Shown here one piece after another: positions 1,524-62,634 of a stretch of 64,000 nt of DNA; position 1 is the stretch's first letter; each line of letters begins with the position of its first letter. The DNA comes from Thermodesulfobacteriota bacterium (GTDB lineage: Bacteria; Desulfobacterota; QYQD01). The translations under genes and the position numbers were made by a program. Location of the stretch: contig JBFMFO010000003.1 of the NCBI GenBank assembly GCA_040754095.1, positions 57,401-121,400 of the forward strand. The letters run 5' to 3'. Below the pieces are notes generated by a model that made no database searches, was not told the origin of the DNA, and worked only from the letters and a program-made list of their open reading frames with translations.

Positions 1524-2339
1524 CTAAAATCCCCGGCTGGCGCCGCCACCGCCGCTCATGCCCCCGCCAAACCCACCGAATCCCCCGCCAAAACCACCGA
1601 AATCGTCGTTTCCGAATCCGCCGCCACGGCCTATAGGCGGGAAAAAGATAATAGGCAGCCCGCCCATGCGGGAGCGCCTCCTTCCCAGAACTAGAAAGAA
1701 AAATAAAAACAGGGGCAGGACAGCCAATGGCCAGGAAGACGAACTGCGGTGTGCCTTCTTTAGCTCCATCTTCCCGGTAAGCTGGACTCCTGCGTCCCGG
1801 GCCACAATCTGCGTTATGGCCAGACTGCCGTTGAGAAGTCCCTGGCTGAAATCGCCTCTCTTAAACCAGAGAATTACATAATCATCGAGTATCTGGCCGA
1901 CCAGACCGTCAGGCAGTATTCCCTCGACGCCATAGCCGGTTTCTATCCGCACGCGCCGCTCTTTTTGGGCCAGGAGGATGAGAACGCCCCTGTCTTCCCC
2001 CTTTTTCCCTATGCCCCAGTCCTCATAAAGGCCGGTGGCATAGGTTTCTATGTCGGAGCCGCCGAGATCGGGCAGGGTAACTACTACCAATCCGGTCCCG
2101 GTTTTCTGCCATAGCTCCTGGGCCAGGTGGTTGATCTGATCGGCATGGACTGGTGATAAGACCCGTGCGAAGTCGTTGACCGGGCCTTTGTGCCGGGGAT
2201 AAGTGGCGGCAAATACAGGCTGAATACAAAGGACAAAAGACAGGAAGAATAGAAATAAAAAAAATCGGGCTGCTTTCAGATGACCCCCTGACCTCAATCC
2301 GCCGCAGGCGGAGAAGCAAAAGTTGATGTCATTAGTCAA
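1524..2339 (-). CDS. TPM-domain protein (YgcG-like) with Gly-rich C-terminal tail
   Basis: Signal/TM segment (ARFFLFLFFLSFVLCIQPVFA). TPM phosphatase-domain motifs follow (PVNDFARVLSP ... GTGLVVVTLPDLGG ... GVLILLAQKERRVRIETGYG). A second TM is present, and the C-terminus is GGGFGNDDFGGFGGGFGGFGGG. The true start is probably internal (near 2270) rather than the ATG at 2339. Confidence 0.8.
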   Translation of the reverse strand: MTNDINFCFSACGGLRSGGHLKAARFFLFLFFLSFVLCIQPVFAATYPRHKGPVNDFARVLSPVHADQINHLAQELWQKTGTGLVVVTLPDLGGSDIETYATGLYEDWGIGKKGEDRGVLILLAQKERRVRIETGYGVEGILPDGLVGQILDDYVILWFKRGDFSQGLLNGSLAITQIVARDAGVQLTGKMELKKAHRSSSSWPLAVLPLFLFFFLVLGRRRSRMGGLPIIFFPPIGRGGGFGNDDFGGFGGGFGGFGGGMSGGGGASRGF

Positions 2340-2412
2340 TAGTCATTTGTCACCAGTAAAGGCAATCTATCTTCCCAACTTAACCAATGACTAATGACCA
2401 GTGATGAGTGAC
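2327..2412. repeat. Intergenic inverted-repeat element, TGACTAATGACCAGTGAC family
   Basis: Arms gtcattagtcaatagtcatttgtcacc / ccaatgactaatgaccagtgatgagtgac. The same motif recurs at many intergenic sites in the window. Confidence 0.7.
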
Positions 2413-10689: not shown

Positions 10690-10850
10690 ATAGCTGTCAG
10701 CTATCAGCAGTCAGCGGTCAGCATGAAGTCGGTCCACCGTTCACTGTTGACCGTTTACCGAAAGAAAATGTCGGACAACGGTTAACGGATAACAGATAAC
10801 AAACATGCTGATAGCTGAACGCTGATAGCTAAAATGGGGAGGGATCAACA
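10690..10850. repeat. Mosaic intergenic repeat, reverse-complement copy of 19840-19990
   Basis: ctgtcagctatcagcagtcagcggtcagcatg ... ccgtttaccgaaagaaaatgtcggacaacggttaacggataac ... gctgatagctgaacgctgatagc. Near-identical inverted copy at 19840-19990. Related copy at 38560-38680. Confidence 0.75.
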
Positions 10851-11188
10851 TGGCTTGCATGCTTAGCGACGTTGACGGAAAGCCGGTGTTAAAGCTGACG
10901 GGTGCAGTCGGTATCGCCGAAGGCGCGGAATTAAAAGGGGCCCTGCTGAGGCTTATTGAATCTACAGAAAATCCTACGGTAGCCATGGATGGAGTTACAG
11001 AGGTCGATGTCTGCACTTTGCAACTTCTATTTGCAACTCAAAAGAGCGCCGCCAAAGCCGGTAAGTCGCTTAATTTGGCGGACATCCCCGAGCCGTTTAA
11101 TCAGGCAGCAGAATTGGCAGGAATGGCTGACCTCTTTGGGCTTAAAATTCGAAATCCGAAGCACGAAATTCGAGACAATACCAAATGA
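10850..11188 (+). CDS. STAS-domain protein (anti-sigma-factor-antagonist-like) in the che cluster
   Basis: RBS GGGGAGGG. Reads KLTGAVGIAEGAELKGALLRL ... VDVCTLQLLFATQKSAAKAGKSL, a STAS/SpoIIAA-like fold signature. The 3' end and stop codon lie inside a MITE terminal repeat, so the C-terminus is uncertain. Confidence 0.65.
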   Translation: MACMLSDVDGKPVLKLTGAVGIAEGAELKGALLRLIESTENPTVAMDGVTEVDVCTLQLLFATQKSAAKAGKSLNLADIPEPFNQAAELAGMADLFGLKIRNPKHEIRDNTK

Positions 11189-11420
11189 CCAAAATTCTAA
11201 GCAATTATGAGGCTCTTGCAAAAGTCGTCACTCCGGTGAAAACCGGAGTCCAGATGGTTTGCAACTGTTTGAAAAGACTGGATTCCGGCTTTCGCCGGAA
11301 TGACAACAATTCGATCGTAAGAGTTTTGCAATAGCCACTTATGTTTTGGTCATTTGAGCATTTTGATTTCGGATTTGTTTCGGATTTGGGATTTCGAATT
11401 TCGGATTTAAACGTGGCGCT
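11130..11420. repeat. Diverged copy of the ~300 bp MITE (TIRs cgaaattcgagacaataccaaatgaccaaaat / ttttggtcatttgagcattttgatttcggatttgtttcggattt)
   Basis: Same termini and same internal hairpin (ccggctttcgccggaatgac) as the copies at 16790-17125 and 18750-19085. Confidence 0.65.
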
Positions 11421-11496
11421 CGGTAATCTCAGTTCGGCGCATAAGTGCTAACGGTGTTTTGGCAGTGGATTTAGGTAAAAACTGGGGGGGTAATTT

Positions 11497-11862
11497 ATGG
11501 CTAAGACAATTATGACCGCCGACGATTCAGCCAGCGTCCGGCAGATGGTAAGTTTCACCCTTAAACAGGCCGGTTACGAGGTCATCGAAGCGGCGGACGG
11601 TAAAGATGCCCTGACCAAGTTGAACGGCACGCAGATAGACATGCTGATTACCGACCTCAATATGCCCAACCTGGATGGGATCAGCCTGATCAAGGGTGTG
11701 CGCGGGATGCCTAACCATAAGTTCATCCCGATCATTATGCTGACTACAGAGTCTCAGGAGAGCAAGAAGGCTGAAGGCAGAACAGCCGGGGCCTCCGGAT
11801 GGATCGTTAAGCCGTTTAAGCCGGATCAGCTCCTGGCGGTGGTTAAAAAAGTATTAAGATAA
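11497..11862 (+). CDS. cheY: Chemotaxis response regulator CheY
   Basis: 121-aa single REC domain (ADDSASVR ... DMLITDLNMPNLDGISLI ... KPF). Confidence 0.9.
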   Translation: MAKTIMTADDSASVRQMVSFTLKQAGYEVIEAADGKDALTKLNGTQIDMLITDLNMPNLDGISLIKGVRGMPNHKFIPIIMLTTESQESKKAEGRTAGASGWIVKPFKPDQLLAVVKKVLR

Positions 11863-14664: not shown

Positions 14665-14775
14665 CTGAAGGCTCAAAGCTCAAAGCTCAAAGCTCAAAGC
14701 TGATGGCTGATAGCTCATAGTTCATGGCTCAAGGCTGAAGGTAATGACCAGTGACCAATGACTAATGACCGATTT
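14665..14775. repeat. Mosaic repeat with a 4x GCTCAAA microsatellite plus a gctgatggctgatagctcatag ... aatgaccagtgaccaatgactaatgacc motif
   Basis: Read directly from the sequence. Motifs are shared with many other intergenic sites. Confidence 0.6.
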
Positions 14776-24094: not shown

Positions 24095-24149
24095 CAAATG
24101 TCAAATGGCAAAGCTCAAATGAAGCCCAAATGACTAAAACAGATGTCAT

Positions 24150-24285
24150 TAGTCAATAGTCATTTGTCATTACTTAAAGAAGTTGCAAGTTGCAAAAGTT
24201 ACAAGTTACAAATCGGTAACTTCTGTAACCTGTAACTATTTTATAAACAATGACTAATGACCAGTGACGAGTGAGGTTTTGCGCT
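24150..24285. repeat. TGACTAATGACCAGTGAC-family inverted-repeat element with internal gttgcaagttgcaaaagttacaagttacaa direct repeats
   Basis: gtcattagtcaatagtcatttgtcat ... caatgactaatgaccagtgacgagtgagg. Confidence 0.7.
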
Positions 24286-33657: not shown

Positions 33658-33930
33658 ATAGGAGACGTCACTGGTCATTAGTCATCGGTCATTGGTTAGG
33701 TGTGGGATTGACGGCTTTTACTAGTGACAGATAACCATTGACTAATGACATTCATTGTAATTCACAATATTAAACCGCTCTCTTGGTACGGACGCAATTT
33801 AACAACTGCCCTTTCTTTTTGTCAAGTTTTGTTAGTTAGCAACTATTTGCCGCAGAGCACACAGAGTCAAGCCATTTAACACCTGAGGACAGGCGGGACG
33901 CTTGTCCTCCTGATAGATGATGGTTGAAAG

Positions 33931-34837: not shown

Positions 34838-34955
34838 TCACTTGTCACAAAAAAGTCATCGGTCAATAGTCACTTGTCAATGGTAGAAGATATTGATCTC
34901 CCTACTTAACTAATTACCAATGACTATTGACAAATGACTAATGACATTCACTATA
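34838..34955. repeat. TGACTAATGAC / GTCACTTGTCA-family inverted-repeat element
   Basis: gtcacttgtcacaaaaaagtcatcggtcaatagtcacttgtcaatgg ... ccaatgactattgacaaatgactaatgacattcac. Confidence 0.65.
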
Positions 34956-38419: not shown

Positions 38420-38730
38420 ACGATGGGCAACAACCGATCATTAGTCATCGGCCATCGGTTAGTGCTCAACCGGAAATTACCGTTTCCGGCTTACGGTCGG
38501 CCTAAGGCCGGTCGTGCCACGCGCCGATTCGCCGGGGCGAGCTTCACGCTTTCAGCGGTCAGCTGTCAGCATGTTTGTTATCCGTTAACCGTTGTCCGAC
38601 ATTTTCTTTCGGTTAACGGTCAACAGTGAACGGTGGGCCGGCTTTATGCTGAAGGCTGATAGCTGAATGCTGATCGCTTTTACCAGTGACAAATGACTAT
38701 TGACTAATGACATTCACTATACTTTGTTTG
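38420..38730. repeat. Composite mosaic repeat block. The 38420-38560 portion is the reverse complement of 51780-51900, and 38560-38680 relates to 19840-19990.
   Basis: Shared strings: atcattagtcatcggccatcggttag, ccggaaattaccgtttccgg, cagcggtcagctgtcagcatgtttgttatccgttaaccgttgtccgac, accagtgacaaatgactattgactaatgac. Confidence 0.75.
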
Positions 38731-42286: not shown

Positions 42287-42385
42287 AATGTCATTAGTCA
42301 ATAGTCAGTTGTCACTGGTAGGAATTAATAAGTTTACCGCACATTACATGACCAATGACTAATGACCAGTGACGTTGTCTATAGA
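42287..42385. repeat. TGACTAATGACCAGTGAC-family inverted-repeat element
   Basis: gtcattagtcaatagtcagttgtcactgg ... catgaccaatgactaatgaccagtgacg. Confidence 0.7.
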
Positions 42386-51699: not shown

Positions 51700-51915
51700 A
51701 ATGAATGTCAGTTGTCACTGGTAAAAGCGATCAACACTCAGCATCAGCATTCAGCTTAAGGTACTATTTGCCTTGGATTTTTTGCTGATGGCTGACAGCT
51801 GACCGCTGAAAGCGTGAAGTTCGCCCCGGCGAATCGGCCTGTGGCACGACCGAAAACGGTAGTTTCCGGTCGTGCGCTAATCAATGACCGATGACTAATG
51901 ACCAGTGATGTTGCC
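51700..51915. repeat. Composite mosaic repeat block (reverse complement of 38420-38690)
   Basis: gtcagttgtcactggtaaaagcgatcaacactcagcatcagcattcagc ... gctgatggctgacagctgaccgctgaaagcgtgaag ... ccggaaaacggtagtttccgg ... aatgaccgatgactaatgaccagtgatg. Confidence 0.75.
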
Positions 51916-56065: not shown

Positions 56066-57013
56066 CTATCTACAGGGCAGATCGAATTCAGGAGATGACA
56101 TCTCTTTAAGTTTTTCTTCAAGATCGGCTATAGGAGATTTGAGATTTCCGGCTTCATCGGCCCTTTTTAGTATTTCAAGCACAAGCGAGGCTTTTTCCTT
56201 GTGTCCGATATTATAACAGACGTTGAAGGCCCTCCAGGCGTATTCAGCGGCCTCAGACCACCTTTCCTGTTTTAGGGTTAACTTGGCCAGCATCTCCAGG
56301 TCAGCAGCGATACCGGGATAATCGAGGTTTTCCTGGTCAAGTTCCAGGGCTTCTACCCATAGGGTTTGGGCCTCCATATAATTTCCCTCAGACATGCGTA
56401 TAAGGCCCAGATTATGGCAGGCTGAAGCCATCCCGGATTTATTATCCCCGGCTTCATATATGGCTATGGCTTTCGATACAGAGTCATTTGCCATGGGAAG
56501 AAGGCCTTTTTGCCAATATAGGTGTCCCATAAGATTGAGGACAAATGCTTGCTGGACATCATCCTTGCCGCGGGTTGCCGCCTGAAAAGCCTCTTCCAGG
56601 TGTCTTTCGGCCTGGCTTGGATTTTCCGCCTTCAGATCAACCGTAGCCAGATTACTGAGACTGAGAGATAGCCCTGCTTCGTTATCCAGATTACGCTGAA
56701 TGCGGGCGGCCAGGGTGAAAAAATCTCCGGCCTCATTGAGCTTGCCGGTATTCAGGGCCAGCATGCCGAGATTGTTATAGTCATAAGCCATGCCGGGAAG
56801 GTTGTCTGTGGACTGGTTAATTCGCAGGGAATCTTCAAATAAGGACAAGGCCCGGCTATAACAACCCTTTTTAAACCAGCGTAATCCCTGATTGGCATAA
56901 TCCAGCGCCTTTTCTTTTTCTAATTCTATAGGCTTCGGCGGCGCGCCTGCACAGCCTGGGAGGCCGGATAACATTAACAGTATGCAGGCTATTATCAGAA
57001 GACAGCGGCGCAT
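56066..57013 (-). CDS. TPR-repeat lipoprotein
   Basis: Signal peptide with a lipobox-like LSGLPGC. Several 34-aa TPR-like repeats (ALDYANQGLRWFKKGCYSRALSLFE ... ). Confidence 0.75.
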   Translation of the reverse strand: MRRCLLIIACILLMLSGLPGCAGAPPKPIELEKEKALDYANQGLRWFKKGCYSRALSLFEDSLRINQSTDNLPGMAYDYNNLGMLALNTGKLNEAGDFFTLAARIQRNLDNEAGLSLSLSNLATVDLKAENPSQAERHLEEAFQAATRGKDDVQQAFVLNLMGHLYWQKGLLPMANDSVSKAIAIYEAGDNKSGMASACHNLGLIRMSEGNYMEAQTLWVEALELDQENLDYPGIAADLEMLAKLTLKQERWSEAAEYAWRAFNVCYNIGHKEKASLVLEILKRADEAGNLKSPIADLEEKLKEMSSPEFDLPCR

Positions 57014-57931
57014 TTATCTTACTCCTCTTGTATCCGGCTGAATAATTCCCTTTTCTTTCGGGGGGATGCCGCCTTTAATGAGCGGACTACGTTTGGCGGA
57101 TTCCAGTATCTGGTCCAATTTCTGTAAATTCTCACGCGCTCCCTGGGCAATGGCCGGCGCATCACGACTGGCGGTCTTTATATCATGCAGGATTTTTCTC
57201 ATTTCTTGCATGGCTTCCGGCAGGACCCGGGCGGCTTGCTCTACGCCCTGCGATGTCTTCTCAGCGTTAGCCAGTGTGGTCTCCAGGTGGGCCATTTGCC
57301 GGTCCAGTCTCTCATAAAGGTCATTTTTTACCAGTATGTTCCCCATCCCCTGGCCCCTTTTTATATCATTGGTTATGGCCCGCAGGTCCCAGAGCGTACC
57401 CAATAACGGGCCTTCCGGGTCCTTAAGCTGATCCATCGTCTCCTCGAGGCTGTATAGTATCCGGGTAAGGGCATTGAATTTTTCTTCCAGGTGAAACTCT
57501 TCAGCATAATCACTGAGAGATTTTTTCCTCTTGGAGGGGATGGTTCCCTCTTCAGATATAAGGGGTGACTCCGGCGAACCGGCGGATATAGATATATATT
57601 CGCTGCCAATGAAGGTGGGACTGGCCACGACCGCTACCGAGTCCCGCCTGATCAATTTTGAGTATCCCTTCAGGATTTTGATGGTGACCCCTACCTTGTT
57701 TTGCGGGGTGATCTCTAACGAAGTCACCCGCCCCACATCAGTATTAAATATCTTGACGGTGGCCCCTTCCCTGAGGTTGTAGCCCTCATCAAAGACAATA
57801 TTATAGATGCCATAATCCCTAAACCAGGCCTTACCGCGGCCGATGACGATTACGCTTCCGGTTACTACGATGATGGTAAGGATGAGCAAAGCGCCCACCA
57901 TCTTTTCCATTGTGCTAAACTTCATTTCCAT
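57014..57931 (-). CDS. mlaD: MlaD-like MCE-domain protein
   Basis: N-terminal TM (MVGALLILTIIVVTGSVIVIG), MCE domain, C-terminal coiled coil. The start is uncertain; candidate ATGs lie at 57964, 57931 and 57907. Confidence 0.8.
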   Translation of the reverse strand: MEMKFSTMEKMVGALLILTIIVVTGSVIVIGRGKAWFRDYGIYNIVFDEGYNLREGATVKIFNTDVGRVTSLEITPQNKVGVTIKILKGYSKLIRRDSVAVVASPTFIGSEYISISAGSPESPLISEEGTIPSKRKKSLSDYAEEFHLEEKFNALTRILYSLEETMDQLKDPEGPLLGTLWDLRAITNDIKRGQGMGNILVKNDLYERLDRQMAHLETTLANAEKTSQGVEQAARVLPEAMQEMRKILHDIKTASRDAPAIAQGARENLQKLDQILESAKRSPLIKGGIPPKEKGIIQPDTRGVR

Positions 57932-58059
57932 GATCGGATGCTGTTCCTCCCCGGATATTATCAAAACCTAACCACAGAACACAGAGAAACTATAACGTAC
58001 TAATGAGTTCAAAGTTTAAAGTTCAAAGTTAAAATCAATGCCAAATGCCAAAGCTCAAA

Positions 58060-58165
58060 ACGTCACTCGTCACTGGTCATTAGTCATTGGTTAAGTTGGG
58101 AGAAAGATAGACCCCTTTTACCAGTGACAAATGACTCTTGACTAATGACTAATGACTTCTACTTT
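58060..58165. repeat. TGACTAATGACCAGTGAC-family inverted-repeat element
   Basis: cgtcactcgtcactggtcattagtcattgg ... ccagtgacaaatgactcttgactaatgactaatgac. Confidence 0.7.
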
Positions 58166-58217
58166 TGTCATTTGGAACTTACGTAAAACCCTCTGTGGTT
58201 GTTTTTCACGAAAGTTT

Positions 58218-58922
58218 TTACATTACCCTCTCCGAGCCAGGATTTTCTCCGGCCAGCCTCCCCTCTTCCAGGGTATATGAGCGACTGATGAGTGCGGACA
58301 GGGAGGCGAATGAGGCAGCGCTTGTGGAGGCGACCAGCAGGGAGCTGCCCATCTCCTGCAGGCATTTTCCTGCATAGGATATAAGCAGGGTCTGTCCTTC
58401 TGTAGAAAGGGTATCGATTATTCTGTCCAATAGTATCAGGATAGGTTTTTTGGCCAGCTCCCGGGCGCATACTGCCCGTTTAAATATCTCCGCATTAACC
58501 TCTGTGGGATGCAGGTCTTTATAATCATTGACCTGGAAATAGGTTAAGAGCCTTTCTCCTTCTTCCCAAACATCGTGCAGTGATCTGTTTTCGTAGTAGG
58601 CCCATCCTAGGGATACGTTTTGTAATAAGGTGAGATTGCTTATCAGGGCCGTATCCTCGGCTACGTAAGCAATCTTTCGGCGCAGGGAAAGAAGGTCTAT
58701 TTCCCTGTCAAAAGGTACGGGTATCCCATCCAGGTAGATTTCTCCCTGCGTTGGTTCCAGCAAAGTGGCGCATATCTGGAGCAACTCAGCGCCGGACAGG
58801 CCGGTTGGGTCACAGAGACCTATCCCTTCGCCAGATTGTACGGCCAGGTTAACCCCCTGCAGTATATTTTTCCCGTTATCTTTATACCATACATTATTTA
58901 TGTGGAGGCGAATTGCGGCCAT
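58218..58922 (-). CDS. ABC-ATPase-like protein with degenerate catalytic motifs (pseudo-MlaF)
   Basis: ABC fold register is recognisable (ILQGVNL.V..GE...L.....G .. LL ... GEIYLDG). But Walker A reads LCDPTGLSGAELL (no GK[ST]). The signature reads EVNAE instead of LSGGQ. Walker B reads ILILLDRII (no DE). Confidence 0.7.
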   Translation of the reverse strand: MAAIRLHINNVWYKDNGKNILQGVNLAVQSGEGIGLCDPTGLSGAELLQICATLLEPTQGEIYLDGIPVPFDREIDLLSLRRKIAYVAEDTALISNLTLLQNVSLGWAYYENRSLHDVWEEGERLLTYFQVNDYKDLHPTEVNAEIFKRAVCARELAKKPILILLDRIIDTLSTEGQTLLISYAGKCLQEMGSSLLVASTSAASFASLSALISRSYTLEEGRLAGENPGSERVM

Positions 58923-58929
58923 CTTCCAA

Positions 58930-59754
58930 TCACAGGTAAAAAAAGGTGGATATGAGGACGTTCAGGACAAAACAATACACCAGACATTGTACAGCGGCCC
59001 GGGCGGTGACCTGTGGCACTTCAGTGATAGCCTTTTTAGCCAGACCGCCCTGGTAAGTACAGACCAGAGATATAATGAGGCCGAAGAAAAGGGCCTTGAC
59101 AAATCCTATAATGACATCAAACCCTGTAATAGCCCGGTAGAATGAAGGAAGTAAGACAGAAAACGGCGTTCCTGTGAATATCCAGGCGAATAAGTATCCC
59201 CCGGTAATAGCTACAGCGTCGAAGCAAACAAAAAGGCAGATGATAGCCAGTATTACTCCCAAGACACGGGGCAGAACTATAAGGTGCAGGGGGTCTATTC
59301 CCAGCATACGGAGCGCGCGCATTTCTTTAAGGACATGCATATAACCTATCTCTACCGACATGGACATCCCGGAGCGAAGTATGACGACCAGCGTGGTCAT
59401 CAGCGGCCCAATTTCCCGTATGACTACGGCTACAAGTAATGTGCCCAGGAACTCTTCACTCCCGACCCTGGTCAGTTGTCCCAGGGATTGAACGATAACC
59501 AAAAAACCGAAAATAAGGGCCACGAGGCTTATGATACCCAGAGACTGAACCCCTGTAAAATATATCTGTTGTATGATAGCTTGTCTAATCAGTCGCCGCC
59601 CTGTCTTATGTTCTTTGAATAAGATATAGATGAGGCGGGTGAGAAGGCCCACAACATTGCTTAAATGCCGTATTCTTTCTACTATACTGCGGCCGAGGCA
59701 GCCAAGGAGCCACCCGGGAGATAGTCCGGATATGTTGCCTTGATACCCGCCCAT
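58930..59754 (-). CDS. mlaE: MlaE-family ABC transporter permease
   Basis: 274 aa, 5-6 TM helices, conserved MlaE/YrbE blocks (GPLMTTLVVILRSGMSMSVEIGYMHVLKE). Confidence 0.85.
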   Translation of the reverse strand: MGGYQGNISGLSPGWLLGCLGRSIVERIRHLSNVVGLLTRLIYILFKEHKTGRRLIRQAIIQQIYFTGVQSLGIISLVALIFGFLVIVQSLGQLTRVGSEEFLGTLLVAVVIREIGPLMTTLVVILRSGMSMSVEIGYMHVLKEMRALRMLGIDPLHLIVLPRVLGVILAIICLFVCFDAVAITGGYLFAWIFTGTPFSVLLPSFYRAITGFDVIIGFVKALFFGLIISLVCTYQGGLAKKAITEVPQVTARAAVQCLVYCFVLNVLISTFFYL

Positions 59755-59759
59755 TTTCT

Positions 59760-60179
59760 TTATGCCCGGATGCCTTTTTCTGACAGCATTTTTTCCGCAA
59801 ATCCCAGGATAAAATCTCTTTGTGCCTTACCGGCATATTGGATACAGTCGCAGTGAAGAGTCTGCTTGCTGCGTATGAGAAATTCTAACTTGACGCAATC
59901 CTCTCCGACCTCGATAGAGAAACAAAAGGGCTTGCAATTTTCGTGGGTGTATTGCACCTCAGCCAGCAGGTCATCCGGGAGGTCAACCCAGAACAGACCC
60001 TCTACAGAGGACAGTTGGGCATGCTCCCGGAGATATTCCACAATCTGTTCGACTTGTTTTTTATCCAGTTCATCAATCAGATATTGCCGCACTAAAAGCT
60101 CCCTTACCGCAAAAAATCCTAAACCCTGTTCCCCATTTTCAAATGACAAAATCCAGGTTTGATATTTGGATTTAGTCAC
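59760..60179 (-). CDS. Hypothetical Cys-containing protein upstream of mlaE
   Basis: 139-aa ORF with an ATG start, no recognisable motif. Cysteines lie at CKPFCFSIEVGEDC ... HCDC. Confidence 0.4.
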   Translation of the reverse strand: MTKSKYQTWILSFENGEQGLGFFAVRELLVRQYLIDELDKKQVEQIVEYLREHAQLSSVEGLFWVDLPDDLLAEVQYTHENCKPFCFSIEVGEDCVKLEFLIRSKQTLHCDCIQYAGKAQRDFILGFAEKMLSEKGIRA

Positions 60180-60234
60180 TGGTCATTAGTCATTGGTCAA
60201 TGGTCATCAGCTATCAGCCATGAGCTATGAGCTA

Positions 60235-62634
60235 TTATTTCTCTTCCTTCATGAAGGCCTTTACATGTTCGGCCATCTTTTTCAGATTTTGATCCACCCG
60301 GCAGAATACGGTTCCCTCGTCATAGGTCCCGTCTTCTTTCCGCTTGCCGGCCTCCATGCCGGTAAGGATCTCGATGCCTTCTTCCACTGTGGAAATGGGA
60401 TAGATATAGAATTTGCCCTCCCGGACCGCCTCCACCACGTCTTTTCGTAGCATCAAATCCTTTACATTTCGTTCCGGAATAATTACCCCCTGTTCGCCGG
60501 TCAGGCCCAGGGCCTTGCACACCTCGTAAAAACCTTCGACTTTTCGTGTAACTCCGCCGACGGGCAAGATTTCCCCTTTTTGGCTTACTGCCCCGGTGAC
60601 GGCTATGCCTTGATAGATCGGCACATCCGCCAGGCTGGAGAGCAAGGCAAAGAGTTCTGCCCCGGATGCAGAGTCGCCTTCGACCAGGCCGTAGCTTTGC
60701 TCGAAACAAAGCGTGGCGGATAAAGTCAATGGTTTGTCATGGGCAAATTTTTCTTTCAGGTATCCACCGAGGATCATAACCCCTTTGGTATGGATACGCC
60801 CGCTCAGCTCGGCTTCGCGGTCAATGGTTACGACCCCTTCCTTGCCGATGGAGACATTAGCGGTAATACGGGTCGGCCTTCCGAACGTATAATCGCCAAG
60901 GTCATATACTGAAAGTCCGTTTACTTGCCCGCTTATGCGGCCGTCAGTCTGGATCTTTATGGTTCCTTTGGCTATGGCTTCTTGTACTTTTTCTTCATAG
61001 AGATTGGAGCGATATCTCTTCTCGGTGATGGCTTTTTCGACGTGGTCAGCCGTGATATATTCCTTTTTATCTTCAGTGGCCCAGAAGTGGGCTTCCTTGA
61101 CTATGTCATATATTTCCGCAAGCTCCAGGGTCAGCTTGTTCTTATCGCCGGACAATTCCGAGCTGTATTCGATGAGGCGGGCCACGCCGGTCTTATGCAG
61201 GGGCCTGAGATTTTGTTTATAAACCATGGTCTTTAAGCAGCTTATAAACTGCTCCAGCTTGGCCGGTTGATTGTCCATTTCCACGTCAAGATGCGCCTTG
61301 ACCTTGAACAACTCTCTGAATGCCTCGTCATAATTGTAAAGTAAGTAATAGATATATGGATCACCGATGAGGATGGTTTTTACCCGCAGCGGGACAGGTT
61401 CCGGCTTGAGGGTTTTGGTTGTGATGTAACCAAATTGTTCGGCGAGGCCCTCGATGCGTATTTCCTTATTTTTTATAGTCCTTTTCAGCGCCTCATAGGA
61501 AAAAAACCACTTCAAGAGATCCAGCACCTTGATAATTAAATACCCTCCATTGGCTTGGTGCAGGGCGCCGGGCTTGATCATGGTGAAGTCGGTGAAAAGG
61601 GCGCCGAATTGGGCCTTGTACTCTATGGTTCCAAAGAGGTTCGGATAGTTGGGATTGGTGCAATAGACCACCGGGGCCCCTTTAAGTTTCGAATTATCTA
61701 TGAGCACATTGACCTCATAGCGCGTAAATGACGGGGCGGGAGCAGCTATTGGGAACGGCCCGGCAGGCGCGGCCTTTTGTTTAAAGTCATCTATATGCTT
61801 GACCACGTCATCCTGTACATCCTGCAGGTAGGTGACTACGGCCGGATACGATCTGTATTTTTCTTTGAGGTCATCGATAAAATGGCCTACGGCCTGGAGA
61901 GTTACGTCTCTATCCAACCCCTTTAACTCGGTGCGAAATTCCTTTTCCATCTGTTGTATCTTGTGAGCGGCAATGTTCATTTCTTTTTGCAGGGCCTCGC
62001 TTTTAGCCCGGAGCCCGGCCCTCTGCCCGTCAGAAAGGGCTTTGATATCCTCCTGCGCGAGGGGTGTCCCATCTTCTTTGGCCGGGATGACCATCATGCC
62101 GCCTTGATCTACATTCAGGGCAAAACCTTCCTGCCTGGCCCGTTCTTCCAGTTCTTCAAAGATTTTTGCCCGGCGAGCGTTAAAGCCCTTAACAATTTCT
62201 TCCTTGCGCGTCAGATAGTATTCACTTCCAAAGACCTCAGGTATCTGCATCTTGAGATTTTCGATGAGTTCTTCCATATCCTTCTGAAATTCTCTGCCCT
62301 CGCCTACCGGAAGTTCTATAGCTATCGGCTTGTCCGGTTCCTTGAAATTATGCACATAACAACAATCGGGAGGCACATCCTGTTTGTCGGCTATATCTTC
62401 CAGAAAGGATTTGACGATGTAGCTCATGCCCGTATTCGGAGCGCCGGCCATATAAACATTATATTCCAGGTCTGACATCTTAATGCCGAACTTCAGGGCA
62501 TTAACCGCGCGTTCCTGGCCTATAACGCCATTTTTCAGGGTAAGCACTTCGTCTGTGGTGGTAAACCCAAGGGTTTCCGGATCACAGGTCCTTCTCAATT
62601 CGTGAATAGACGCTTCTTTAAATTTTTTCGCCAT
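60235..62634 (-). CDS. Lon-like protease (COG1067/LonC-type) with a degenerate AAA+-like module
   Basis: C-terminal Lon proteolytic domain with Ser-Lys dyad context (GDSASGAELFALLSS ... PVGGVTRKVEGF). In the N-terminal ATPase-like region Walker A reads GAPNTGMS (Lys replaced by Met) and no hhhhDE Walker B is evident. Confidence 0.8.
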   Translation of the reverse strand: MAKKFKEASIHELRRTCDPETLGFTTTDEVLTLKNGVIGQERAVNALKFGIKMSDLEYNVYMAGAPNTGMSYIVKSFLEDIADKQDVPPDCCYVHNFKEPDKPIAIELPVGEGREFQKDMEELIENLKMQIPEVFGSEYYLTRKEEIVKGFNARRAKIFEELEERARQEGFALNVDQGGMMVIPAKEDGTPLAQEDIKALSDGQRAGLRAKSEALQKEMNIAAHKIQQMEKEFRTELKGLDRDVTLQAVGHFIDDLKEKYRSYPAVVTYLQDVQDDVVKHIDDFKQKAAPAGPFPIAAPAPSFTRYEVNVLIDNSKLKGAPVVYCTNPNYPNLFGTIEYKAQFGALFTDFTMIKPGALHQANGGYLIIKVLDLLKWFFSYEALKRTIKNKEIRIEGLAEQFGYITTKTLKPEPVPLRVKTILIGDPYIYYLLYNYDEAFRELFKVKAHLDVEMDNQPAKLEQFISCLKTMVYKQNLRPLHKTGVARLIEYSSELSGDKNKLTLELAEIYDIVKEAHFWATEDKKEYITADHVEKAITEKRYRSNLYEEKVQEAIAKGTIKIQTDGRISGQVNGLSVYDLGDYTFGRPTRITANVSIGKEGVVTIDREAELSGRIHTKGVMILGGYLKEKFAHDKPLTLSATLCFEQSYGLVEGDSASGAELFALLSSLADVPIYQGIAVTGAVSQKGEILPVGGVTRKVEGFYEVCKALGLTGEQGVIIPERNVKDLMLRKDVVEAVREGKFYIYPISTVEEGIEILTGMEAGKRKEDGTYDEGTVFCRVDQNLKKMAEHVKAFMKEEK

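What the first reader, a model, noticed from the sequence alone, without database searches (positions are those of the whole stretch)
58218..58922. Catalytically degenerate ABC-ATPase paralogue (pseudo-MlaF) in an MlaE/MlaD operon
The 234-aa protein keeps ABC-ATPase length and register. But Walker A is LCDPTGLSGAELL (no G-K-S/T), the Q-loop Gln appears replaced, the LSGGQ signature reads EVNAE, and Walker B reads ILILLDRII (no catalytic Glu).

It lies between mlaE (58930-59754) and, across a repeat-filled gap, mlaD (57014-57931), on the same strand. No intact mlaF is in the operon. An Mla-type lipid transporter built around a non-hydrolysing nucleotide-binding-domain-like subunit would work differently from canonical MlaFEDB. 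The alternative is decay of the system.
Basis: seen in the sequence. Interest (0 to 1): 0.55.

Follow-up and report, generated by a model that had tools for sequence, protein, structure and literature searches.

The report
ATPase-dead subunit in lipid-transport operon
A bacterial envelope lipid-transport operon encodes, in place of its ATP-burning motor, a well-conserved look-alike that has lost every ATP-handling motif; related uncultured bacteria share this, so this transporter type may work without ATP hydrolysis.

Summary
ORF 58218-58922 (-) has an ABC nucleotide-binding-domain (NBD) fold: Pfam ABC_tran 37 bits, AlphaFold pLDDT 90, Foldseek TM about 0.85 to LolD and E. coli MlaF. It lacks the Walker A Lys/Ser/Thr, Q-loop Gln, LSGGQ signature, Walker B Glu and H-loop His.

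It is not a decaying gene.
- Orthologues at 54-96% identity keep the same degenerate motifs.
- dN/dS is 0.16-0.40.
- The order mlaE, pseudo-NBD, long mlaD, TPR lipoprotein is conserved.

Across about 95 loci carrying MlaE relatives (34-99% identity), the NBD gene just downstream never shows all five canonical motifs (0 of 70 distinct variants). Forty variants show none. The window's MlaE falls in a clade (73% neighbour-joining bootstrap) whose partners all lack the Walker A Lys, the signature and the catalytic Glu.

The architecture most resembles the needle-type P. aeruginosa PA3211-PA3214 system, not the MlaFEDB/MlaC shuttle.

Best reading, by inference: a structural pseudo-ATPase holds MlaE in a nucleotide-free-like state, making a passive or otherwise-energised lipid conduit across the envelope. 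No biochemistry exists, and I could not test for a canonical MlaF elsewhere in the genome. I rate it a new variant of a known kind, interest about 0.66.

The parts
58218..58922 (-). Pseudo-NBD: a 234-aa protein with an ABC nucleotide-binding-domain fold that lacks all five catalytic motifs
   Evidence: ORF. Pfam ABC_tran 37.3 bits. AF2 pLDDT 90.1, pTM 0.88. Foldseek to LolD 2pcj and E. coli MlaF 6xgz/6xbd, TM about 0.82-0.85. Motif alignment. dN/dS 0.16-0.40.
58785..58811 (-). Former Walker A (P-loop): DPTGLSGAE instead of GxxGxGK[ST]T. The Lys, Ser and Thr positions vary among orthologues (G/S/Y, A/R/P, E/D/G).
58485..58499 (-). Former ABC signature: VNAEI instead of LSGGQ/LSGGM
58422..58439 (-). 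Former Walker B: LILLDR. The Asp is kept. The catalytic Glu position is Arg here and K/Q/S/A/T in orthologues.
58596..58646 (-). Most conserved block of the family, LISNLTLLQNVSLGWAY (residues 93-109). It is the segment just after the Q-loop, which in canonical ABC NBDs lines the groove for the permease coupling helix. Fifteen of 17 residues are invariant in the tight family. L93, S95, N96, N102 and Y109 are conserved across the wider degenerate family.
   Evidence: The structural role is inferred from general knowledge of ABC transporters.
58930..59754 (-). MlaE-family permease, 274 aa, ending 7 nt upstream of the pseudo-NBD start codon
   Evidence: Pfam MlaE 192 bits. 24% identity to E. coli MlaE. 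dN/dS 0.09-0.17.
57014..57931 (-). Long MlaD/MCE protein, 305 aa: N-terminal membrane anchor, one MCE domain (about residues 54-129 in the numbering of the 316-aa ORF that was scanned, 57014-57964), about 180 aa of helical C-terminal region, and a conserved C-terminal tail
   Evidence: Pfam MlaD 47.9 bits. TIGR00996 MCE family 67.8 bits over residues 24-288. Relatives carry a faint 'Helical_needle' hit. C-terminal tail motif.
56066..57013 (-). TPR-repeat lipoprotein, 315 aa, with a signal peptide and lipobox Cys. Its stop-start boundary abuts mlaD. It is the fourth conserved gene of the module.
   Evidence: Pfam TPR_12 and others. A homologue lies downstream of MlaD in 39 of 52 loci with enough sequence, each with a signal peptide plus Cys.
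57949..58232 (.). Strain-specific insertion of about 284 bp (37% GC) carrying a heptamer-repeat hairpin element. It replaces the non-conserved C-terminal tail of the pseudo-NBD (257 aa in sister genomes) and separates that gene from mlaD.
   Evidence: DNA alignment with four sister loci. Repeats. Composition.
59760..60092 (-). Conserved 110-aa protein of unknown fold directly upstream of mlaE, with invariant H50, C53, C57, H80, C81 and C83. It is specific to the window's tight family.
   Evidence: dN/dS 0.05-0.23. No Pfam or NCBIfam hit. AF2 model unusable.

Best explanation
Shown: the ORF encodes a functional, conserved pseudo-ATPase. It has an ABC NBD fold but no longer carries the residues that bind and hydrolyse ATP.

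Shown by context: it is the cognate cytoplasmic subunit of a four-gene MCE-type envelope module. The module comprises an MlaE permease, the pseudo-NBD, a single-MCE protein with a long helical C-terminal 'needle', and a TPR outer-membrane lipoprotein. It occurs in a clade of uncultured Thermodesulfobacteriota and related metagenomic lineages.

Inferred mechanism:
- Two pseudo-NBD copies dock on the coupling helices of the MlaE dimer through the conserved post-Q-loop groove. They serve as a structural base.
- They cannot form the ATP-sandwich dimer, so MlaE stays in a state like nucleotide-free MlaFEDB. In that state the lipid cavity is open towards the MCE ring.
- The MCE hexamer and needle, capped by the TPR lipoprotein, then form a conduit across the envelope. 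Lipids would move through it passively down their gradient, as reported for PqiABC, or driven by a non-ATP energy source.
For: Fold.

Loss of all five motifs, with the register checked against E. coli MlaF and canonical controls.

The catalytic positions are not merely substituted. They vary among orthologues, whereas the post-Q-loop block 93-109 is nearly invariant.

Purifying selection: dN/dS is 0.16-0.40 for the pseudo-NBD. It is 0.09-0.17 for mlaE, 0.09-0.19 for mlaD and 0.11-0.22 for the TPR gene.

Genomic coupling: 7 nt separate mlaE and the pseudo-NBD gene. In sister genomes the pseudo-NBD gene abuts mlaD.

Conserved module: the four-gene order is kept at MlaE identities down to about 38-40%.

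Clade-wide pattern: 0 of 70 distinct MlaE-adjacent NBD variants are fully canonical and 40 of 70 have none of the five motifs. The window's MlaE sits in a 26-taxon clade with 73% NJ bootstrap support. All partner NBDs in that clade lack the Walker A Lys, the signature and the catalytic Glu.

No second NBD, MlaB or MlaC lies in the 64-kb window.

Literature support for the mechanism:
- Nucleotide-free MlaFEDB is outward-open with phospholipids bound independently of ATP. ATP-driven MlaF dimerisation collapses the cavity through the coupling helices (PMC7784689).
- PqiABC mediates passive bidirectional phospholipid exchange in vitro (bioRxiv 10.64898/2026.09.15.751761).
- PA3211-PA3214 shows that the permease/NBD/needle-MCE/OM-lipoprotein architecture can span the periplasm (PMC13631591).
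Against: No biochemical or structural data exist for any member. All carriers are uncultured MAGs.

The complex itself (MlaE2-pseudoNBD2-MlaD6-TPRn) was not modelled, so docking on MlaE and the role of the TPR protein rest on gene context alone.

The substrate is unknown.

A canonical MlaF-like ATPase encoded elsewhere in these genomes, as MceG is in actinobacteria, could not be excluded. Only 64 kb of sequence, or 10 kb either side of the gene in related loci, was available.

D38, G41 and S43 of the former P-loop are invariant in the tight family. Sister subclades conserve new residues at the former active site, such as a 'VHRE' Q-loop and an 'E-H-P' Walker B. These could mean the site binds something else.

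Deep nodes of the MlaE tree are weakly supported.
Confidence: 0.55

Rival explanations
1. Ligand- or partner-gated switch. The former nucleotide site or dimer face has been repurposed to bind another ligand or a protein partner, for example the family-specific 110-aa Cys/His protein. The pseudo-NBD would then regulate opening of MlaE rather than merely scaffold it.
For: D38, G41 and S43 of the former P-loop and E145 of the former signature are invariant in the tight family. Sister subclades conserve new residues at the old active site, such as VHRE, LTFEQ and LLEHP. A highly conserved small Cys/His protein is encoded 5 nt upstream of mlaE.
Against: The residues conserved at the old site differ between subclades. 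The upstream gene is not conserved across the clade. No ligand-binding motif was recognised.
Confidence: 0.2
2. Energised in trans. A canonical MlaF/MceG-like ATPase encoded elsewhere in the genome powers this MlaE. It would either replace the pseudo-NBD or form a heterodimer with it. The pseudo-NBD would act as an assembly factor, a competitor or a brake.
For: There is a precedent in actinobacteria, where one MceG serves several mce operons (PMC9947336, title and abstract listed). The rest of the genome could not be searched.
Against: An NBD-like gene sits in the cognate position, tightly coupled to mlaE, in every locus with enough sequence downstream of mlaE to tell. The pseudo-NBD has lost both its Walker A/B and its signature. 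A heterodimer with a canonical NBD would therefore have no intact composite site (an inference from the head-to-tail NBD dimer). No second NBD lies within 64 kb here, and none adjoins the module within 10 kb either side in L006, L023 or L024. The other NBD genes in L024 sit with their own permease genes.
Confidence: 0.12
3. Non-canonical nucleotide binding. The protein still binds ATP or another nucleotide through unusual residues and uses binding, not hydrolysis, for gating.
For: The A-loop aromatic residue Y13 and the Walker B Asp D166 are retained. Some sister-clade NBDs keep an intact Walker A but have D-Q or D-D at Walker B and no H-loop His. That pattern suggests binding-only states.
Against: In the window's clade the P-loop Lys, Ser and Thr are all gone and those positions vary freely. 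The Q-loop, signature and H-loop are also lost.
Confidence: 0.08
4. Decay. The gene is a strain-specific pseudogene or a sequencing artefact in a dying operon.
For: Its dN/dS is the highest in the operon. In this strain a 284-bp insertion has clipped the C-terminal tail.
Against: The reading frame is intact in all orthologues. dN/dS is well below 1. The same degenerate motifs are kept at 54-96% identity, and the state is shared across a deep clade. The exact 234-aa protein occurs in independent MAG assemblies.
Confidence: 0.02

Closest known systems
P. aeruginosa PA3211-PA3214 MCE system (PMC13631591)
   Same: The four genes come in the same order: MlaE-like permease, NBD, single-MCE protein of about 310 aa with a C-terminal helical needle, and an outer-membrane lipoprotein. 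Both are proposed to span the envelope, and neither uses a periplasmic shuttle protein.
   Different: PA3212 is described as an ATPase, whereas here the NBD has lost all catalytic motifs. The lipoprotein here is a TPR protein, not PqiC-like. No sequence comparison with PA3211-PA3214 was possible with these tools.
E. coli MlaFEDB / MlaC / MlaA
   Same: MlaE-family permease (24% identity), an MCE-domain protein, and an NBD-fold subunit whose model superposes on MlaF (TM about 0.85).
   Different: MlaF is a canonical ATPase with a C-terminal extension and an MlaB partner. MlaD is short (183 aa). Lipids are shuttled by periplasmic MlaC. Here the gene order is E-F-D. The window has no MlaB or MlaC. 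The MCE protein is long. The NBD is ATPase-dead and scores 46 bits against the MlaF model's cutoff of 441.
PqiABC and LetAB (MCE systems without an ABC motor)
   Same: MCE tunnels or needles that span the envelope and have no ATPase. PqiABC has an OM lipoprotein cap and shows passive bidirectional phospholipid exchange in vitro.
   Different: Their inner-membrane partners, PqiA and LetA, are unrelated to MlaE. They have no NBD-like subunit at all.
Degenerate NBDs of heterodimeric ABC transporters (e.g. PatAB, CFTR site 1)
   Same: Naturally occurring loss of catalytic residues in an NBD that is kept for structural or regulatory roles.
   Different: Those systems keep one consensus ATP site, and the degenerate site still binds ATP. 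Here both halves of the composite site (Walker A/B and signature) are lost in the only NBD encoded with the permease.
Veillonella parvula MlaEFD (PMC10665443)
   Same: A minimal mlaE-mlaF-mlaD operon with the same gene order and a long MlaD proposed to bridge the envelope.
   Different: That paper describes MlaF as closely resembling those of model diderms. Its MlaD carries a C-terminal beta-barrel rather than pairing with a TPR lipoprotein.

Membership tests
ABC transporter nucleotide-binding domain (fold level, Pfam PF00005) | Profile match above the gathering score, and a RecA-like core plus helical subdomain fold | tested here: met
   37.3 bits against a cutoff of 25. AF2 pLDDT 90. Foldseek probability 1.00 and TM 0.82-0.88 to many NBDs.
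Catalytic ABC ATPase | Walker A GxxGxGK[ST] | tested here: not met
   DPTGLSGAE. No Lys, Ser or Thr. These positions vary in orthologues.
Catalytic ABC ATPase | Signature LSGGQ and Q-loop Gln | tested here: not met
   VNAEI in place of the signature. E89 in place of the Q-loop Gln, and W/L/S/V in orthologues.
Catalytic ABC ATPase | Walker B hhhhDE with a catalytic Glu, and the H-loop His | tested here: not met
   LILLDR (Asp kept, Glu replaced by Arg) and ASTS (His replaced by Thr).
MlaF equivalog (NCBIfam NF008809) | Score above the curated cutoff | tested here: not met
   46.3 bits against a cutoff of 441. The proV, DevA, FtsE and LolD models score as high or higher. A PDB profile search ranks MetN, ArtP and LolD above MlaF.
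MlaF (functional definition) | Encoded next to mlaE and mlaD as the NBD of the complex | tested here: met
   7 nt downstream of mlaE and upstream of mlaD. This position is conserved in about 95 loci.
MlaF (functional definition) | C-terminal extension and an MlaB (STAS) partner | tested here: not met
   The alignment ends about 35 residues before the MlaF C-terminus. No MlaB homologue is in the window. The tail is not conserved among orthologues.
MlaE permease family (Pfam PF02405) | Profile match above the gathering score | tested here: met
   192.1 bits against a cutoff of 22.5. It falls below the NCBIfam subfamily cutoff: TIGR00056 scores 147.8 against 212.2.
MCE/MlaD family (Pfam PF02470) | An MCE domain after an N-terminal membrane anchor | tested here: met
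   47.9 bits against a cutoff of 25.1. The E. coli-type MlaD equivalog TIGR04430 is not met: 40.3 against 135.
PA3211-PA3214-type trans-envelope ABC-MCE system | Gene order permease-NBD-MCE-lipoprotein, with a needle-forming helical C-terminus on the MCE protein | tested here: inconclusive
   The gene order and an MCE protein of about 305 aa with a helical or coiled-coil C-terminal half are present. Relatives carry only a faint 'Helical_needle' hit. Neither the needle nor the complex was modelled.
PA3211-PA3214-type trans-envelope ABC-MCE system | PqiC-like outer-membrane lipoprotein | tested here: not met
   The fourth gene encodes a TPR-repeat lipoprotein.
MlaFEDB/MlaC/MlaA shuttle pathway | Periplasmic MlaC carrier and short MlaD | tested here: not met
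   No MlaC homologue is in the window. MlaD is 305 aa. The rest of the genome was not searchable.

The most novel reading that the evidence does not exclude
A deep, widespread clade of MlaE/MCE envelope systems has turned its ABC motor into an inert scaffold and kept it under selection. If so, an MlaE-type permease with a needle-MCE protein and a TPR lipoprotein can move lipids between membranes without ATP hydrolysis, either passively or with an unknown energy source. The sister clade holds intermediate motif states: an intact Walker A with a dead Walker B, natural E-to-Q, and K-to-R. That would give a natural series for working out what ATP binding and hydrolysis each contribute to MCE-mediated lipid transport and its direction.
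Probability: 0.45. Interest if true: 0.78.

Novelty: new variant of a known kind. Interest (0 to 1): 0.66.

Why it matters
How phospholipids travel between the two membranes of diderm bacteria is still debated. So are the direction of travel and the energy source.

Mla is regarded as the ATP-driven MCE system. Pqi and Let have no ATPase, and PqiABC was recently reported to be passive.

An MlaE-based MCE system whose NBD is conserved but dead would be a natural loss-of-ATPase experiment. It shows that the NBD fold is retained for something other than catalysis, and it implies that this transporter type can be useful without hydrolysis. It also provides a graded series of natural motif states for comparative biochemistry.

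For annotation, these proteins are currently labelled 'ATP-binding cassette domain-containing protein', 'lipoprotein export system ATPase subunit' or 'hypothetical protein'. They would be counted as active ABC ATPases in genome surveys of Mla systems.

Tried and rejected
1. AlphaFold of the 110-aa upstream protein. The single-sequence model had pLDDT 48 and was unusable.
2. A Foldseek search of AFDB50, meant to find named relatives in cultured organisms, was unavailable.
3. A broad MlaE alignment (A6) was too divergent for the metagenome scan. A narrower one (A7) worked.
4. A conserved upstream fifth gene acting as an MlaB analogue was rejected. Upstream genes are specific to each subclade.
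5. LonC protease as part of the module was rejected. Its adjacency holds only in the window's tight family (against 21, 49, 50).
6. A terminator in the gap between the pseudo-NBD gene and mlaD was not found by the consensus scan.
7. A real frameshift in mlaD of the Desulfovibrionales MAG (L001/L015) was rejected. The split coincides with a run of N in the assembly.
8. Curated family models: no NCBIfam model reaches its cutoff for any of 27 degenerate members. No solved structure belongs to the family.
9. Six literature searches found no description of degenerate NBDs linked to MlaE.
10. A genome-wide search for a canonical mlaF in the carrier genomes is not possible with these tools.
Full report
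**1. The observation**

The ORF at 58218-58922 (-) is real: 234 aa with an ATG start. It matches Pfam ABC_tran at 37.3 bits against a cutoff of 25, over residues 21-166. It also matches hundreds of solved NBDs, best Aquifex LolD 2pcj at E 1.4e-18.

An AlphaFold2 model built on a 26-sequence alignment is confident: mean pLDDT 90.1, pTM 0.88. It superposes on LolD and on E. coli MlaF (6xgz, 6xbd) with TM about 0.82-0.85 and Foldseek probability 1.00. So the protein has an ABC NBD fold.

Alignment with E. coli MlaF and a canonical LolD-type NBD fixes the register:

| Motif | Canonical (E. coli MlaF) | This protein |
|---|---|---|
| Walker A | GPSGIGKTT | DPTGLSGAE (residues 38-46) |
| Q-loop | Gln | E89 |
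| Signature | LSGGM | VNAEI (residues 142-146) |
| Walker B | LIMFDE | LILLDR |
| D-loop | SLD (from the LolD-type NBD; MlaF itself reads GQD) | TLS |
| H-loop | His | T200 |

Its 'EVNAE' is one residue out of register.

mlaE (58930-59754; Pfam MlaE 192 bits) ends 7 nt upstream. mlaD (57014-57931; Pfam MlaD 47.9 bits) follows after a repeat-rich gap. The 64-kb window holds no other NBD, MlaB or MlaC.

**2. It is not decay**

Seven protein clusters at 54-94% identity keep the same degenerate motifs. Five species-level MAGs carry the gene, all uncultured Thermodesulfobacteriota, 'Deltaproteobacteria' or Desulfovibrionales.

The catalytic positions are not just replaced. They drift among orthologues:
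- The Lys position is G, S or Y.
- The Ser position is A, R or P.
- The Q-loop Gln position is E, W, L, S or V.
- The catalytic Glu position is R, K, Q, S, A or T.

By contrast, the block right after the Q-loop, LISNLTLLQNVSLGWAY (residues 93-109), is almost invariant.

Pairwise Nei-Gojobori dN/dS against six orthologous loci:

| Gene | dN/dS |
|---|---|
| pseudo-NBD | 0.16-0.40 |
| mlaE | 0.09-0.17 |
| mlaD | 0.09-0.19 |
| TPR gene | 0.11-0.22 |
| neighbouring LonC | 0.06-0.08 |

The gene is therefore under purifying selection, but it is the least constrained gene of the operon. That fits a protein that has lost its catalytic constraints and kept its structural ones.

The exact 234-aa sequence is deposited from independent MAG assemblies (MEW5948265.1, MFZ5995068.1). 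It is annotated only as 'ATP-binding cassette domain-containing protein'.

**3. The module**

In the tight family the order is Aldolase_II, LonC, a 110-aa protein, MlaE, the pseudo-NBD, MlaD and a TPR protein.

Much more distant loci share only four of these genes in order. Examples are L006 (a 4.8-Mb contig), L023 and L024, with MlaE at 38-40% identity. The shared genes are:
- MlaE;
- a degenerate NBD;
- an MlaD of about 324 aa with a faint 'Helical_needle' hit;
- a protein of about 320 aa homologous to the window's TPR protein.

Upstream genes differ between subclades.

The TPR proteins start with a signal peptide and a lipobox Cys throughout. The MlaD C-terminus carries a conserved tail. 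Most TPR-linked loci read ILESVKxNFLIRxNLPxxPxPExHGxEIRG[DE]. The window reads ILESAKRSPLIKGGIPPKEKGIIQPDTRGVR.

**4. The phenomenon is clade-wide**

A profile of the eight orthologues was searched against 1.84 billion representative proteins. After the tight family's single representative (P0003) came a mix in which 38 of the top 149 hits are single-domain NBDs without a Walker A. Four were looked up. P0171, P0175 and P0231 lie directly downstream of an MlaE gene. P0178 starts at the edge of its contig and is followed by an MlaD-like gene.

A metagenome scan with an MlaE alignment returned 80 loci at 34-99% identity. I aligned every NBD gene lying directly downstream of MlaE to one NBD profile. 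Canonical controls all read as canonical in this pipeline, and a separate alignment shows E. coli MlaF canonical in the same register.

Results for the 70 distinct full-length motif combinations:
- None has all five canonical motifs.
- Forty have none of the five.
- The rest are intermediate. Examples: an intact Walker A and Q-loop with a D-D Walker B and no His (GPSRSGKSL ... LLLDDP); an intact Walker A with a natural D-Q Walker B (GPAGAGKTT ... IFDQP); and K-to-R or K-to-Q P-loops.
- Three deviate only in the signature (LSEGL, LSHGI, LSEEC) and may still be active.

Of 52 loci with at least 2.9 kb downstream, 50 have an MlaD-like gene and 39 have a detectable homologue of the TPR protein.

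In an NJ tree of MlaE rooted on E. coli MlaE, the window family sits in a clade of 26 non-redundant sequences with 73% bootstrap support. Every partner NBD in that clade lacks the Walker A Lys, the signature and the catalytic Glu. The intermediate states lie mainly outside that clade. Deeper nodes are weak.

This points to an old loss followed by long retention. The tree is only NJ, so the number of independent losses is not settled.

**5. How it most likely works**

Shown:
- an NBD fold;
- loss of all ATP-handling residues;
- purifying selection;
- the cognate gene position next to mlaE;
- a conserved four-gene module.

From the literature:
- In E. coli MlaFEDB the nucleotide-free state is outward-open, with phospholipids bound in the MlaE cavity independently of ATP. 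ATP-driven MlaF dimerisation acts through the MlaE coupling helices to collapse that cavity (PMC7784689).
- PqiABC, an MCE system with no ATPase, mediates passive bidirectional phospholipid exchange in vitro.
- PA3211-PA3214 shows that a permease/NBD/needle-MCE/OM-lipoprotein system can span about 230 Å. There the C-terminal peptides of the MCE protein dock on the lipoprotein.

Inferred:
- The pseudo-NBD still docks on MlaE. Its best-conserved surface is the post-Q-loop segment, which in ABC transporters lines the coupling-helix groove.
- It cannot close around ATP. MlaE is therefore held in an apo-like, lipid-accessible state under the MCE ring.
- The needle, capped by the TPR lipoprotein, makes a conduit that equilibrates lipids or uses another energy source. 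The TPR protein may bind the conserved MlaD tail.

I put about 0.9 on the descriptive part and about 0.45 on the passive-scaffold mechanism.

**6. Rivals**

- **Repurposed site.** The former active site might bind another ligand or partner. In support, D38, G41, S43 and E145 are invariant in the tight family. Sister subclades conserve new motifs such as VHRE and LLEHP at the old site. A conserved Cys/His-rich 110-aa protein is encoded just upstream. Against this, the conserved residues and the upstream genes differ between subclades.
- **Trans-acting ATPase.** A canonical ATPase encoded elsewhere, like MceG, cannot be excluded without whole genomes. However, a heterodimer would have no intact composite site, because the pseudo-NBD has lost both its Walker motifs and its signature.
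- **Non-canonical nucleotide binding.** This is unlikely for the window's clade and plausible for some sister-clade proteins.
- **Decay.** Contradicted by the conservation and selection data above.

**7. Comparison with what is known**

At fold level the protein is a member of the ABC NBD superfamily. It fails every test for a catalytic ABC ATPase. It also fails the MlaF equivalog model (46 bits against 441). By sequence it is no nearer to MlaF than to MetN, ArtP, LolD or FtsE.

In gene order and architecture the system is closest to PA3211-PA3214 and to the minimal MlaEFD of Veillonella. It differs in two ways: the NBD is dead, and the lipoprotein is a TPR protein rather than PqiC-like or a fused barrel.

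No curated NCBIfam model covers the family and no solved structure belongs to it. Six full-text searches found no description of MlaE-linked degenerate NBDs. The Veillonella survey identified MlaF only by synteny and noted 'uncertainty of MlaF annotations'. I therefore rate it a new variant of a known kind.

**8. A strain-specific detail**

In four sister genomes the pseudo-NBD is 257 aa and its non-conserved tail runs up to the mlaD start. In the window, about 284 bp of 37% GC sequence (about 57949-58232) replaces that tail, giving the 234-aa form and the 'repeat-filled gap'.

The insert carries a hairpin of GTCATTA-type heptamers. The same element recurs at about ten intergenic sites in the window: 36 matches against 0.02 expected.

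**9. Limits**

- All carriers are uncultured.
- No complex was modelled.
- The substrate is unknown.
- The loci were sampled by similarity to this MlaE, so the figures describe this MlaE subfamily, not Mla systems in general.
- Motif calls depend on a profile alignment checked with canonical controls.
- The tree is distance-based.

Noticed in passing
window 2328-2405, 14745-14769, 24145-24268, 33667-33749, 34855-34945, 38687-38711, 42290-42373, 51885-51909, 58062-58156, 60175-60206: A dispersed intergenic repeat family. Tandem heptamers (GTCATTA / GTCAnTn) are arranged as inverted-repeat hairpins. There are 36 matches (up to 3 mismatches) to GTCATTAGTCATTAGTCA against 0.02 expected by chance. 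It looks like a REP- or MITE-like element.
   Followed up: partly
window 57949-58232: A segment of about 284 bp at 37% GC, carrying one of these hairpin elements. It is absent from four sister genomes. It replaced the last 25 or so codons of the pseudo-NBD gene (257 aa reduced to 234 aa) and uncoupled that gene from mlaD. The same 234-aa form occurs in independent MAG assemblies.
   Followed up: yes
window 59760-60092 (-): A 110-aa protein encoded 5 nt upstream of mlaE, 83-94% identical among orthologues. H50, C53, C57, H80, C81 and C83 are invariant, which could form a metal site. It has no Pfam or NCBIfam match. It is specific to the window's tight family. The AF2 single-sequence model was unusable.
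   Followed up: partly
window 60235-62634 (-): A LonC-type Lon-like protease (LonC_helical, AAA_32, LonB lid and Lon_C domains) lies immediately upstream of the operon. It is under very strong purifying selection (dN/dS 0.06-0.08). The adjacency is conserved only in the tight family.
   Followed up: partly
window 57014-57110 (-), and MlaD C-termini in L006, L023, L024, L026-L049 and others: The MlaD C-terminal tail carries a motif conserved across the TPR-linked clade: ILESVKxNFLIRxNLPxxPxPExHGxEIRG[DE]. It may be the peptide that docks on the TPR lipoprotein, by analogy with PA3213 and PA3214.
   Followed up: partly
loci L053-L055, L059, L073, L077, L080, L083, L085, L089, L098, L100, L102, L103: NBDs next to sister-clade MlaE genes show intermediate states. 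Examples are an intact Walker A with a D-D or natural D-Q Walker B and no H-loop His, and K-to-R or K-to-Q P-loops. Some may bind ATP without hydrolysing it.
   Followed up: partly
loci L026-L043 and L006, L007, L050, L062-L072 (NBD genes): Fully degenerate sister subclades conserve new residues at the old active site: Q-loop 'VHRE/IHRE', signature 'LTFEQ/LSFEK/VSYEK' and Walker B 'LLEHP/LLEAP/LLETP'. The window's family lacks these. They remain unexplained.
   Followed up: no
L001/L015 about 10711-11569: mlaD appears split into two ORFs in the Desulfovibrionales MAG. The break coincides with a run of N in the assembly, so it is an assembly gap and not a frameshift.
   Followed up: yes
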